A stretch of 64,000 nucleotides of DNA, taken from Chloroflexota bacterium (GTDB lineage Bacteria; Chloroflexota; UBA11872; VXOZ01). The number at the start of each line of letters is the position of its first letter. Positions within the stretch are counted from its first letter, which is position 1. The DNA lies in NCBI GenBank assembly GCA_012270555.1, contig JAAXIC010000029.1, forward strand, positions 11,601 to 75,600, read 5' to 3'. Shown here one piece after another: positions 5,119 to 16,991 of the stretch. Below the pieces are notes generated by a model. The model saw nothing but the letters and a program-made list of their open reading frames with translations, had not been told where the DNA came from and ran no database searches. A program made the translations under genes and the position numbers.

Positions 5119-5567
5119 ACCAACAAGACTCCACCACAAGTTCATTGACGCCATGACGGCCGTGATAATTCACGGCCGTCATGTGTTTAATTTGTCAAGA
5201 CCGTCTGAGACTTGGTGCGTCTGGCTCCGCAGAGCAATAGAGATTGCGTGCAAAGTCCATCCTGCAAGGGACTAGGCGACAAGTGCTACCTAGAGCCCTT
5301 ACCCCAAGGGACCGCCTGATTCCATCCCGCTTTAGTTTGTTCTAGCGAAATACTCATATATCACCTACTCTATGGATTTGACATGTGTTTAGATGTATGA
5401 TAGGGTCGCTAAACGGATAATGGTTATGTATTGAAAAGCGACAAAACTATTAGAATTTTCCTGGTAGGCTGAACTAAGCAGTGCGATGAAAGGGACAGTA
5501 GGTGCCGGTCTGGGCAGGAAGCGGCAGGCACGGTCACTCAACCGGAAGAGGGTTAGGACAAAGCGCT

Positions 5568-15600: not shown

Positions 15601-16991
15601 CCGCTGCCAGCCAGACGTTCAGCCCAGAGGGTGGCGCCTTATGCGGGACGACTTATGAGTTCCAGGTGCAGGCACACGGCGACGGGGAGACCTACCTTGT
15701 CGAGTGGGGAGAGTTCTCCGAGTCCGCTTCGCACACGACCGAAGCGTGCAATCTCCCGCCCGCGTTCGGCTCTGCGACATACACCTTTACGATAGCTGAA
15801 GACGCTGACATAGGTACGACCGTTGGCACCGTCTCCGCCACCGACCCCAACCCCAACGATGGGGACAGTGTGACCTACTCAATCACTGCGGGCAACGGCG
15901 ACGGTACGTTCTCCATAAACGGCAGCAGCGGGAGCATTACGGTCGCCGCCGCGCTGGATTACGAGACCACCATGGCGTACTCGCTGACGGTGCAGGCCAG
16001 CGACGGGAAGGAAGGCGGCACGGCGTTCGCGACGGTCGAGATCACGATCACCGACGTGGCGGAAGATCCCCCGCCCGCGCCGTATAGACTGCCCTCGGTC
16101 TACAATGACGGCGTGTTCCAGCTCAGTTGGAGGTCCGTCGCTGGCGCAGACCAGTACCGGGTGCAGTACCGTATCGGCGGCGACGCGGGTACCTGGATCA
16201 ACTTGGCCGCCACGACGAACACATACCAGTTTTTTACCCTGGAGGGCGGAATTACGTGCGGGACGACCTATGAGTTCCGCATGCAGGCGCGTGGCGACGG
16301 GGAGACCTACCCCGCTATCTGGGGTTCACCATCCAGCGCCGCCATATTCACTGCCCACCCTTGCAACCAGGCGCCTGCGTTTGGCTCTGCGACGTATGAC
16401 TTCACGGTAGCCGAGGACTCTGCCACGGGCACGGCCGTTGGCACTGTTTCCGCCACCGACCCCGACAGCGGGGATAGCGTGACCTATTCGATCACCGCCG
16501 GCAATGGCGACGGCAAGTTTTCCATAGACGGCAGCAGCGGGAGCATTACGGTTGCCGCCGCGCTGGATTACGAGACCGCAACGTCGTACACGCTGACGGT
16601 GCAGGCCAGCGACGGGAAGAAGGATGGCACGGCGACAGCGACGGTCGCAATCAGCGTCACCAACGTGGCGGAAGCTCCTCCGCCCGCGCCGGAGGACCTG
16701 ACCGGCACGGTCACGCACAACAGCGTCACGCTCTCGTGGGACGCGCCCGATGACACCACCGTCACGAGCTACCAGATACTGCGGCGCAGACCCGACCACG
16801 GCGAGACAGAGTTGCTGGTGCACGTAGCCGATACCGAGAGCATTGACGATACCGAGAGTATCGAGACCACGTACACGGACACGGATGTGGCGCCCGGCAC
16901 CCGCTACGTGTACCGGGTCAAGGCCATTAACGCTATCGGTCTGGGTCCGTTCTCAAAGCCCGTGACCGTGACTACTGCGCAACAGCCCTAG
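12624..16991 (+). CDS. giant lipoprotein: N-terminal unknown domain + PS-LRR module + four tandem [FN3 + cadherin] units + terminal FN3
   Basis: Lipobox VVGC. LRRNT-like cap ([30 protein letters not shown]…NWSAS…WDGV) then [34 protein letters not shown]. Four about 200-aa units starting [12 protein letters not shown] with FN3 (YRVQYRTGG…[11 protein letters not shown]) then cadherin-like repeat (…VSATDPN…[19 protein letters not shown]…LDYET…[11 protein letters not shown]). 1455 aa. Confidence 0.85.
   Translation: [1455 protein letters not shown]
14230..16680 (+). repeat. intragenic tandem repeat, four units of about 610 bp (FN3-cadherin modules)
   Basis: Unit starts near 14240, 14846, 15454, 16078 (and terminal partial at 16676) all begin ccgcccgcgccggaggacctcagcgtg or close variant. 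Units 1 and 3 share long identical nt runs (e.g. gacgacacgttcaccctcagttggactgccgtcaccgg…gaccagtaccgggtgcagtacagaaccggcggctctgag). Confidence 0.8.

What the first reader, a model, noticed from the sequence alone, without database searches (positions are those of the whole stretch)
5502..16991. 11.5-kb cluster of four giant secreted or lipoproteins built from eukaryote-like domains (FN3, cadherin, plant-type LRR, PD40 propeller, metzincin): candidate novel cell-surface adhesion or host-interaction module
Domain content, read directly from the sequence:
- Four co-directional genes, all with signal peptides or lipoboxes.
- Together they carry at least 12 fibronectin-III domains, 4 cadherin repeats, two TolB-like 7-bladed PD40 propellers, and three plant-specific LRR modules.
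- The LRR modules have the 24-residue LxxLxxLxLxxNxLtGxIPxxLGxL repeat and LRRNT/LRRCT cysteine caps, the architecture of plant receptor-kinase ectodomains.
- The first gene also has a C-terminal metzincin-like protease domain.

Why this is unusual:
- This combination in one locus is not a described bacterial system.
- PS-LRR with caps is very rare in bacteria; it is typical of symbiont 'eukaryote-like proteins'.
- The locus is preceded by an AT-rich 380-bp region and seems slightly lower in GC than the flanking nuo, rarA or holB genes, suggesting an accessory island.

Plausible roles are attachment to a eukaryotic host matrix, or a cell-surface proteolysis and adhesion complex: PD40 and LRR as ligand-binding modules, cadherin/FN3 as stalks.
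Basis: partly seen in the sequence, partly recalled or inferred. Interest (0 to 1): 0.85.

Follow-up and report, generated by a model that had tools for sequence, protein, structure and literature searches.

The report
Sponge-symbiont surface protease–propeller–adhesin gene cassette
The four genes are real and built from animal- and plant-like domains, but they are best read as two part-decayed copies of a three-gene cassette (secreted metalloprotease, propeller lipoprotein, lipoprotein with an unknown conserved domain) that recurs in sponge-associated Chloroflexota and sits in a swappable genomic island.

Summary
Four co-directional genes (5568-16991) encode one Sec-secreted protein and three lipoproteins carrying FN3, cadherin, PD40 and plant-type 24-residue LRR modules, plus a divergent matrixin-like (M10-like) C-terminal domain.

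Corrections:
- There are 8-10 FN3 domains, not 12 or more.
- PD40 motif counts are 7 and 8, and the propellers are not TolB.
- The LRR caps are only LRRNT_2-like.

These domain classes are already known as "eukaryote-like proteins" enriched in sponge symbionts, and the plant-type LRR module is common there across many phyla.

The apparently undescribed part is a conserved gene order:
- A: FN3 stalk plus matrixin-like protease.
- B: PD40 lipoprotein, with or without LRR.
- C: lipoprotein with a roughly 300-aa unannotated domain, with or without LRR, FN3 or cadherin.

Outside this genome, 14 of 15 A genes are followed by B, and 12 of 16 C genes are preceded by B, often in tandem copies with gene fragments. 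The window holds two decayed cassettes; a relic of a second protease gene lies between genes 2 and 3.

A related genome has about 77% identical flanks but a different, shorter cassette at exactly the same site.

Most likely function (inferred, not shown): a cell-surface complex that binds and cleaves host matrix. This is a new variant of a known kind, of moderate interest.

The parts
5112..17345 (.). Variable island between the conserved DUF3179 gene (3892-5118) and the ThiO-like gene (17320-18456, - strand)
   Evidence: blastn against L008 (OZ244922.1): 72-82% identity in the flanks, ending at window 5111 and resuming at 17346, with no DNA similarity in between. Flank proteins are 66-89% identical, while the cassette proteins are about 30-40% identical.
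5119..5567 (+). AT-rich leader holding the terminator-like hairpin of the upstream gene (5152-5183) and presumably the cluster promoter
   Evidence: GC is 0.49 here, and 0.41 at 5300-5500, the lowest 450-bp windows of the 64 kb. There is a 14-bp stem followed by a T tract. No sigma-70 consensus hit lies in the leader.
5568..8549 (+). g1, cassette component A: Sec signal, unassigned N-domain of about 130 aa, five FN3-like domains, Pro10 linker (7014-7043), and a C-terminal matrixin-like domain
   Evidence: Pfam fn3. The start matches the gene call on the identical contig L003. No lipobox and no C-terminal hydrophobic tail.
7692..8546 (+). Divergent M10-like (matrixin-like) metallopeptidase domain of g1
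   Evidence: Pfam PF00413 E=4e-5; 27 of 53 family members hit PF00413. In the family profile against the PDB, nearly all of the 53 weak hits are MMPs or serralysins, best E=0.007. hhalign to the MMP-1 catalytic domain gives 75% probability over the beta1-alphaA segment. H225, H229 and G232 are invariant; E226 and H251 are at least 90% conserved. The family has 913 representatives at 50% identity, nearly always with the domain C-terminal.
8600..10291 (+). g2, component B: lipoprotein with 7 PD40 motifs, an LRR N-cap, 3 plant-type LRRs and a C-cap
   Evidence: Pfam PD40 and LRR. Exact match to public protein P0010. Motif count; LRR register.
10380..10496 (+). Relic of the 3' end of a second A-type protease gene (HPVTVDSVMSYDSETGVNEPDCAPHPLDIMAIFSLYQSP*)
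   Evidence: tblastn: 61% identity to g1 residues 979-1015; translation. It lies just after the g2 stop and just before g3, as expected if a deletion removed most of a second cassette.
10534..12579 (+). g3, component B (paralogue of g2; propeller 43-50% identical): lipoprotein with 8 PD40 motifs, an LRR N-cap, 6 plant-type LRRs and a C-cap
12633..16991 (+). g4, component C: lipoprotein with a low-complexity linker, a conserved unannotated domain, an LRR module, four FN3+cadherin units and a terminal FN3
   Evidence: Pfam Cadherin (4 domains), fn3 and LRR. Internal repeats are 65-74% identical.
12804..13823 (+). g4_N: conserved domain of about 300 aa with no family assignment
13764..14258 (+). 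LRR module of g4 (LRRNT_2-like cap, 3 LRRs, C-cap)
   Evidence: 46% identical to the g3 LRR module.
14259..16988 (+). FN3/cadherin array of g4
   Evidence: Ca-site-like motifs ATDPD, DPNEN and LDYE, and a Cys pair in each FN3.

Best explanation
The region is a 12.2-kb replaceable island in a Chloroflexota genome whose relatives, where traceable, are sponge-associated. It holds two partly decayed copies of a conserved three-gene surface cassette.

Cassette components:
- A (g1) is exported by a Sec signal and has no membrane anchor of its own. It carries an FN3 stalk and a C-terminal divergent matrixin-like zinc protease.
- B (g2, g3) is a membrane-anchored PD40 beta-propeller lipoprotein, here extended by a plant-type LRR module.
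- C (g4) is a lipoprotein whose membrane-proximal part is a well conserved, unannotated domain of about 300 aa. It is followed by an LRR module and an FN3/cadherin array.

Proposed mechanism (inferred): B and C sit on the outer face of the cell membrane. They hold the secreted protease A at the surface, with the propeller acting as docking and substrate-filtering partner. The variable LRR, FN3 and cadherin modules bind proteins of the sponge extracellular matrix. Together they tether the cell in the matrix and cleave matrix proteins, for remodelling or for food.

Shown versus inferred:
- Shown: the domain content, the gene order, the multi-copy, fragment-rich and fast-diverging nature of the cassette, and (for the loci that could be traced) its sponge source.
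- Inferred: protease activity, the A-B-C physical complex and the host ligands.
For: Domains.

Gene order outside this genome (loci detailed):
- 14 of 15 ORFs with the A domain are followed directly by a PD40 ORF.
- 12 of 16 ORFs with the C domain are directly preceded by one.
- This holds across 11 loci (L005-L008, L010, L030, L082-L085), in different genomic contexts and at only 26-40% identity for A and B. L029 also carries a C-domain ORF but has no PD40 ORF.
- Tandem cassettes occur in L030, L010, L084 and L085.

A relic of a second A gene lies in the window.

Island at a fixed site.

Anchoring: A lacks a lipobox or anchor, whereas B and C have an invariant lipobox Cys.

Protease: the catalytic HExxH Glu is at least 90% conserved in 53 family members.

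Habitat:
- In the JGI metagenome collection, the only two loci with the C domain come from the sponge Sarcotragus foetidus (PMC5099237).
- Among related MAG labels, 'jk18x' was traced to Ircinia. RHO, SB06xx and Langseth are sponge studies only from my recollection.
- Sponge Chloroflexi live in the sponge extracellular matrix (PMC6306507).
- Cadherin, FN3, LRR and PD40 genes are enriched in sponge symbionts (PMC8163846, PMC9531527).
Against: - No expression, activity or interaction data exist.
- The structure model of the protease domain failed (pLDDT 34), so the metzincin fold rests on weak sequence evidence: 23.9 bits against a gathering score of 24, and PDB profile E=0.007 at best.
- The window's protease has Leu at the Met-turn position.
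- B also occurs as a singleton far from A or C (L001, L002), so the association is frequent but not obligatory.
- C is about twice as conserved as A and B (51-75% against 26-40%). A simple co-evolving complex does not predict this.
- Many cassette ORFs are fragments, which may be pseudogenes or long-read frameshift errors.
- The sample that the window itself comes from could not be traced to a host.
Confidence: 0.5

Rival explanations
1. Loose array of independent adhesins. The genes are separate eukaryote-like surface proteins that duplicate and shuffle locally. The A-B-C order reflects common descent of tandem copies, not a shared function.
For: - LRR, FN3 and cadherin modules come and go between homologues (B with or without LRR; C with or without LRR/FN3/cadherin).
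- A chimeric protein, P0237, shows rampant domain shuffling.
- B occurs as singletons.
- Published work treats these domains as independent eukaryote-like proteins.
Against: The order A->B->C is kept in 11 loci, in different genomic contexts, although A and B have diverged to 26-40% identity. The three conserved cores (M10-like, PD40, g4_N) are not adhesion domains.
Confidence: 0.15
2. Toxin-immunity-like pair. A is a secreted protease weapon aimed at competitors or host cells. The downstream PD40 lipoprotein B is its cognate surface inhibitor (immunity). C-terminal protease fragments followed by B genes are orphan modules, as in polymorphic toxin loci.
For: - The protease domain is always C-terminal.
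- B follows A in 14 of 15 cases.
- C-terminal A fragments each followed by a B gene occur in L005, L010 and L084, and in the window relic.
- A and B diverge in parallel.
- Polymorphic toxins with C-terminal metallopeptidase domains and adjacent immunity genes are known (PMC3482391).
Against: - No trafficking domain or secretion-system marker (Rhs, PAAR, LXG, TpsA) was seen in A.
- The C-terminal domain is always the same family rather than a set of alternative folds.
- The fragments are cut inside the catalytic domain at different points (41 to 210 aa), which looks like decay rather than exchangeable modules.
- B is large (430-850 aa) and often carries a ligand-binding LRR.
- The model does not explain C.
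Confidence: 0.12
3. Animal-like protease/inhibitor logic. The conserved domain of C is an NTR/TIMP-like module that binds or restrains the matrixin-like protease A.
Against: - Foldseek finds nothing.
- hhalign to TIMP-1 gives 0.2% probability.
- There is no free N-terminal Cys and no three-disulfide pattern; only two Cys are invariant.
- C is far more conserved than A.
Confidence: 0.08
4. Envelope housekeeping. The cassette builds or maintains the cell envelope or S-layer of these Chloroflexota, with C as a conserved envelope anchor.
For: g4_N is highly conserved (50-75%) and lies next to the membrane. The related SAR202 Chloroflexi of sponges lack peptidoglycan genes (PMC6306507).
Against: - The cassette is multi-copy, fragment-rich and replaceable at a fixed site. 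C is absent from the cassette at this site in the related genome L008.
- It is found only in a sponge sample among 241 million JGI records.
Confidence: 0.07

Closest known systems
Eukaryote-like proteins of sponge symbionts (LRR, FN3, cadherin, PD40 classes; Robbins et al. 2021 PMC8163846; Kelly et al. 2022 PMC9531527; Bayer et al. 2018 PMC6306507)
   Same: Same domain classes, same phylum (Chloroflexota), same habitat for the relatives that could be traced, and signs of exchange between phyla: the LRR module is 45-61% identical in Rhodothermales, Latescibacterota, Gemmatimonadota and other MAGs.
   Different: Those studies count Pfam domains per genome. I found no description of an operon-level cassette, of the matrixin-like C-terminal family, or of the g4_N domain.
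Matrixins / serralysins (MEROPS M10, Pfam PF00413)
   Same: The YRI..W motif in beta1-alphaA, HExGHxLG in the active-site helix, a later His-Pro, an S-V-M-N-Y turn and a C-terminal D-I-x-x-I-x-x-L-Y helix occur in the MMP order.
   Different: - An insertion of 14-45 aa separates HExxHxxG from the third His.
- There is no cysteine-switch propeptide.
- There are six conserved Cys.
- The score is just under the Pfam threshold.
- In the window protein the turn has Leu, not Met.
Plant LRR receptor-kinase ectodomains and plant-type LRR effectors of plant pathogens (NCBIfam XopAC, XopAE, XopL)
   Same: 24-residue repeat with LtGxIPxxLGxL. The N-cap helix aligns with the GSO1 LRRNT_2 cap. The Xop models are hit.
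   Different: Only 3-6 repeats. The cap cysteines are placed differently, and LRRNT_2 is below threshold. The module is fused to a PD40 propeller or to g4_N and anchored by a lipid, with no kinase and no type III signal.
Propeller-gated peptidases (DPP-IV/prolyl oligopeptidase family, tricorn)
   Same: A PD40-type propeller is paired with a peptidase. Weak hits to DPPIV_N, Dpp5 and Tricorn propellers.
   Different: Propeller and peptidase are separate polypeptides. The peptidase is a metzincin-like enzyme, not a serine hydrolase. Any complex is inferred only.
Polymorphic toxin loci with orphan C-terminal modules (Zhang et al. 2012, PMC3482391)
   Same: C-terminal peptidase domain, a tightly linked downstream gene, and tandem arrays with C-terminal fragments.
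   Different: One C-terminal family only, no trafficking domains, and fragments truncated inside the domain.

Membership tests
Fibronectin type III (PF00041) | Pfam score above the gathering score (25 bits) for individual domains | tested here: met
   Four segments score above 25 bits (54.5, 30.4, 28.2, 58.7). Four more score 18.9-24.5 bits at E<0.01. Two have the pattern only.
Cadherin (PF00028) | Pfam domain hits; Ca-binding linker motifs | tested here: met
   Four domains, E=8e-78. ATDPD, DPNEN and LDYE motifs found by pattern. Ca binding itself was not tested.
PD40 beta-propeller (PF07676) | Repeated PD40 motif above the gathering score | tested here: met
   90.9 and 115.6 bits against 20.9. 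7 and 8 WSPDG motifs at a spacing of 41-54 residues.
TolB (TIGR02800) | Equivalog score of at least 343 bits | tested here: not met
   99-103 bits. There is also no Tol-Pal context.
Plant-specific LRR class | 24-residue period with LxxLxLxxNxLtGxIPxxLGxL | tested here: met
   Repeats start exactly every 24 residues in g2, g3 and g4. The 42 best PDB matches are all plant LRR receptors.
LRRNT_2 cap (PF08263) | Pfam gathering score of 20.7 bits; the C-x-W-x-G-V-x-C cysteine pair | tested here: not met
   14.8-15.2 bits, E about 0.03. W-x-G-V is present, but the cysteines lie upstream of the helix. The helix aligns to the GSO1 cap, so it is cap-like but not a member by threshold.
Metzincin / M10 matrixin | HExxHxxGxxH zinc motif | tested here: inconclusive
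   HExxHxxG is invariant or nearly so. There is no His at +11; a conserved His-Pro follows an insertion of 14-45 aa.
Metzincin / M10 matrixin | Met-turn | tested here: inconclusive
   The family consensus is S-V-M-N-Y. The window protein has A-V-L-N-Y.
Metzincin / M10 matrixin | Pfam PF00413 gathering score (24 bits) | tested here: not met
   23.9 bits, E=4e-5. 27 of 53 relatives hit at E<0.01.
Metzincin / M10 matrixin | Metzincin fold | tested here: inconclusive
   The AF2 model has pLDDT 34. The order of secondary-structure elements is compatible but unreliable.
NTR / TIMP module | OB barrel with flanking helices | tested here: inconclusive
NTR / TIMP module | Free N-terminal Cys and three conserved disulfides; sequence similarity | tested here: not met
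   Only two Cys are invariant and the domain is internal. hhalign to TIMP-1 gives 0.2% probability. No Pfam NTR hit.
Polymorphic toxin system | N-terminal trafficking domain and alternative C-terminal toxin folds | tested here: not met
   Only a Sec signal, FN3 and one C-terminal family.
Polymorphic toxin system | Adjacent cognate immunity gene that neutralises the toxin | not testable with these tools
   B is adjacent in 14 of 15 cases, but inhibition needs an experiment.
Sponge-symbiont eukaryote-like proteins | Eukaryote-type domains in genomes of sponge-associated bacteria | tested here: met
   The window's own sample could not be traced.

The most novel reading that the evidence does not exclude
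The A-B-C cassette is a previously unrecognised, sponge-symbiont-specific surface system. In this reading a bacterial matrixin-like protease works with a propeller lipoprotein and an NTR/TIMP-like domain protein, copying the animal MMP/TIMP logic for remodelling extracellular matrix. Tandem copies, orphan fragments and whole-cassette replacement at a fixed site would then provide surface variation against host recognition or phages.
Probability: 0.12. Interest if true: 0.8.

Novelty: new variant of a known kind. Interest (0 to 1): 0.55.

Why it matters
Sponge symbiont genomics has produced long lists of eukaryote-like domains but few defined gene systems or mechanisms.

- A conserved, multi-copy three-gene cassette gives concrete candidates for how abundant Chloroflexota hold on to, and feed on or remodel, the sponge matrix. 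It pairs a likely secreted metalloprotease with two lipoproteins.
- It defines two sizeable unannotated protein families for structural and biochemical work: the matrixin-like C-terminal domain (913 representatives at 50% identity) and g4_N (at least 348 clusters).
- Replacement of the cassette at a fixed chromosomal site points to strong diversifying pressure at the host interface.

Tried and rejected
- An exact look-up of g4 found nothing; g2 (P0010) did lead to the identical contigs.
- The AF2 model of the protease domain from a 5-sequence alignment failed (pLDDT 34), so no fold search was run on it.
- The afdb50 fold library was unavailable.
- Foldseek of g4_N against the PDB gave only noise.
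- Sequence and profile searches of g4_N against the PDB, Pfam and NCBIfam gave nothing.
- The word-indexed homologue search for the protease domain found only 4 proteins. The exhaustive HMMER search was needed to reveal the family.
- The JGI metagenome scan for g4_N gave only two loci. That was useful for habitat but too few for statistics.
- Rfam found no RNA family in the cluster.
- Promoter and terminator scans were at chance level apart from the 5152-5183 hairpin.
- The sample accession of the source contig could not be traced in papers.
- Rejected, TolB-like function: score far below the cut-off and no Tol-Pal context.
- Rejected, g4_N being itself a protease: the PF00413 hit on P0237 lies in a fused C-terminal MMP fragment, not in g4_N.
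- Rejected, a compositional argument for foreign origin: GC3 shifts are small and go both ways.
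Full report
**1. What is there**

The interval holds four + strand ORFs. The window is 100% identical over 15.7 kb to ENA contig L003 and over 10.5 kb to L004. Their gene calls place the likely starts as follows:
- g1: 5568, 993 aa.
- g2: 8600, 563 aa; this is an exact match to public protein P0010.
- g3: 10534, 681 aa.
- g4: 12633, 1452 aa.

Gaps between genes are 50, 242 and 53 nt. Upstream, the DUF3179 gene ends at 5118 and is followed by a 14-bp terminator-like hairpin at 5152-5183. Downstream lies a convergent ThiO-like gene. The four genes therefore look like one transcription unit, which is an inference.

**2. Domains**

g1 (component A):
- A Sec-type signal (…VFASVAQA|QTD) and an unassigned N-domain of about 130 aa (no Pfam hit at E<=1).
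- Five FN3-like units, three of them with Pfam support, and a Pro10 linker.
- A 285-aa C-terminal domain, discussed in section 3.

g2 and g3 (component B):
- Paralogues with propellers 43-50% identical and lipobox-like signals whose Cys is invariant in 16 relatives.
- 7 and 8 WSPDG (PD40) motifs respectively.
- They end in an LRR module: a Cys pair, then a helix resembling the plant LRRNT_2 cap, then 3 or 6 repeats of exactly 24 residues, then a two-Cys C-cap.

g4 (component C):
- Lipobox VVGC, a low-complexity linker, and a roughly 300-aa domain without any family assignment (g4_N).
- The same kind of LRR module, with 3 repeats.
- Four FN3+cadherin units and a final FN3.

The plant-type label for the LRRs is justified. 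The 42 best PDB matches of the g3 module are plant LRR-receptor ectodomains, and the cap aligns with that of GSO1. Pfam LRRNT_2 itself is sub-threshold (E about 0.03).

The propellers are generic PD40, not TolB: about 100 bits against a cut-off of 343.

The total FN3 count is 8 supported plus 2 by pattern, not 12 or more.

**3. The protease domain**

Sequence evidence:
- Pfam Peptidase_M10 scores 23.9 bits against a gathering score of 24 (E=4e-5).
- An exhaustive HMMER search shows a large unannotated family: 913 representatives at E<=1e-3 and 349 at E<=1e-30. The domain is almost always at the C-terminus of proteins of 300-2,700 aa.
- 27 of 53 sampled members hit PF00413 weakly, and one hits Astacin.
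- A family profile searched against the PDB returns almost only MMPs and serralysins, best E=0.007.

Conserved elements follow the matrixin order:
- xTYxYRIC … W..I.hA..QW..AT.
- VHExGHxLG.
- An insertion of 14-45 aa.
- HP..DSVMNY.
- PDCxPHPxDIMAIxxLYQ.

H225, H229 and G232 are invariant, and E226 and H251 are at least 90% conserved. In the window protein the turn residue is Leu. The structure model failed (pLDDT 34).

Verdict: a divergent M10-like metzincin is likely, but it is not proven, and it is not a member by the curated threshold.

**4. The unannotated domain g4_N**

- It has 348 homologous clusters at 50-73% identity, named only "hypothetical protein [Chloroflexi/Dehalococcoidia]" where named at all. 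They are usually proteins of 300-590 aa, sometimes with LRR or FN3.
- No Pfam, NCBIfam or PDB sequence match was found.
- The AF2 model is confident (pLDDT 88, pTM 0.87).
- I treat the NTR/TIMP resemblance as a lead only. The defining free N-terminal Cys and the three disulfides are absent.

**5. Relatives and gene order**

The PD40-LRR lipoprotein family is large.

Only a few of these share the propeller; most share just the LRR module. That module occurs at 45-61% identity in MAGs of Dehalococcoidia, Caldilineaceae, Rhodothermales, Latescibacterota, Gemmatimonadota, Acidimicrobiales, Acidobacteriota orders and Pseudomonadota. This fits the published lateral spread of such genes among sponge symbionts (PMC8163846). 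Identity between consensus-like repeats can, however, be inflated.

I labelled the ORFs of all fetched loci by BLASTP against segments of the window proteins. This shows a recurrent order: A (FN3…M10-like), then B (PD40 with or without LRR), then C (g4_N with or without LRR/FN3/cadherin).
- Excluding the window's own contigs, 14 of 15 A ORFs are directly followed by B, and 12 of 16 C ORFs are directly preceded by B. This holds in 11 loci.
- All four loci that were fetched through C rather than B show the order (L082-L085).
- L007 keeps the order in a different genomic context.
- L030, L010, L084 and L085 carry two or three tandem cassettes.
- Several loci hold C-terminal A fragments or C fragments next to intact B genes.
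- B also occurs alone (L001, L002).
- Identity to the window proteins is 26-40% for A and B but 51-75% for C.

**6. The window holds two decayed cassettes**

Directly after the g2 stop, at 10380-10496, lies an open remnant of the last 40 or so codons of an A-type gene. It includes the His-Pro, the SVMSY turn, the PHPLDIMAIFSLYQSP tail and a stop codon.

The simplest history is A1-B1-(C1)-A2-B2-C2, followed by a deletion that removed C1 and most of A2. This explains why there are two propeller genes.

**7. An island at a fixed site**

In L008 (Chloroflexota MAG OZ244922.1) the same flanking genes occur in the same order: ArfA, MBL-fold, CRP-like and DUF3179 on one side, and ThiO-like, nucleoside hydrolase, MOSC, SDR, PPi-PFK, MFS and holB on the other. 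They are 66-89% identical at the protein level and 72-82% at the DNA level.

DNA similarity ends at window 5111 and resumes at 17346. Between these points L008 has only 5.8 kb: an FN3 fragment, an A gene and a B gene, about 30-40% identical to the window's, and no C.

Composition gives only weak support for foreign origin:
- The leader (GC 0.49) and parts of g1 and g2 are the lowest-GC stretches of the window.
- g4 has the highest GC3.

**8. Habitat**

- The only two C-domain loci among the 241 million JGI metagenome records come from WGS project LXNI. That project is the sponge Sarcotragus foetidus (PMC5099237).
- The MAG label 'jk18x…' matches the Ircinia study (PMC9531527). Labels such as RHO, SB06xx and Langseth are, from my own knowledge, also sponge studies.
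- The sample of the window's own contig could not be traced.
- Sponge Chloroflexi were visualised in the sponge extracellular matrix (PMC6306507).

**9. How it most likely works**

Shown: A is exported without an anchor; B and C carry lipoprotein signals; the three cores are genetically linked; the decorations vary.

Inferred:
- B and C anchor and position the secreted protease at the cell surface, with the propeller acting as docking or substrate-filtering partner, as in propeller-gated peptidases.
- The LRR, FN3 and cadherin modules bind host matrix components.
- The protease cleaves these components, for tethering, remodelling or nutrition.
- Multi-copy, fast-diverging and replaceable cassettes suggest diversifying selection at the host (or phage) interface.

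I put this model at about 0.5. The rivals are:
- Unlinked adhesins: 0.15.
- A toxin-immunity-like protease and inhibitor pair, suggested by the C-terminal fragments followed by B genes and by analogy with PMC3482391: 0.12.
- MMP/TIMP-like regulation by C: 0.08.
- Envelope housekeeping: 0.07.

**10. Novelty and score**

- I found no description of the three-gene cassette, the matrixin-like C-terminal family or g4_N in the searchable literature. That library is incomplete.
- I rate this as a new variant of a known kind, with interest 0.55.

Noticed in passing
L085:10001-11353 (protein P0237): A g4_N + LRR protein ends in a canonical MMP zinc motif and Met-turn (LMHEFGHTLGLGHSADSSAIM…), spliced directly onto an LRR repeat. 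This is only the last 50 or so residues of a matrixin domain. It shows that canonical matrixin sequences exist in the same gene pool and that domains are recombined.
   Followed up: partly
L027, L031, L054, L060, L081: The LRR module of g3 is 56-61% identical to modules in Rhodothermales, Pseudomonadota and Acidimicrobiales MAGs. That is higher than its identity to g2 or g4 in the same operon (46-56%). The cause is either lateral transfer or convergence on the repeat consensus.
   Followed up: partly
window 5152-5183: A perfect 14-bp hairpin followed by a T tract lies right after the DUF3179 gene. It is the only strong terminator-like site in the 5-17.5 kb stretch.
   Followed up: partly
window 3892-5118: The gene bordering the island is a DUF3179 protein (E=5e-105), 78% identical in L008. 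Its function is unknown, and any link to the island was not examined.
   Followed up: no
window 14259-16988 (g4): Each of the four internal FN3 domains of g4 carries a Cys pair 35 residues apart, which suggests disulfide-stabilised FN3. The FN3+cadherin units are 65-74% identical at the DNA and protein level, so the array is fairly young or homogenised.
   Followed up: no
L001, L002, L084: DDE transposase genes (DUF772/DDE_Tnp_1) lie within 5-10 kb of PD40-LRR singletons and of the triple cassette in related genomes. They may contribute to cassette mobility.
   Followed up: no
window 42000-48000: A strong positive AT skew (0.17-0.28) coincides with three Proton_antipo_M genes (nuoL/M/N-type) on the - strand. 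The skew is explained by T-rich membrane-protein coding. A tRNA lies at 42049-42120.
   Followed up: partly
window 56223-58046 (- strand): A VanW + PG_binding_4 protein is encoded here. This hints that the organism has peptidoglycan, unlike the sponge SAR202 described in PMC6306507.
   Followed up: no
L007 5822-9927; L084; L010: Several A genes in long-read MAG chromosomes are split into two or three adjacent ORFs. I could not tell real pseudogenes from assembly frameshifts.
   Followed up: no
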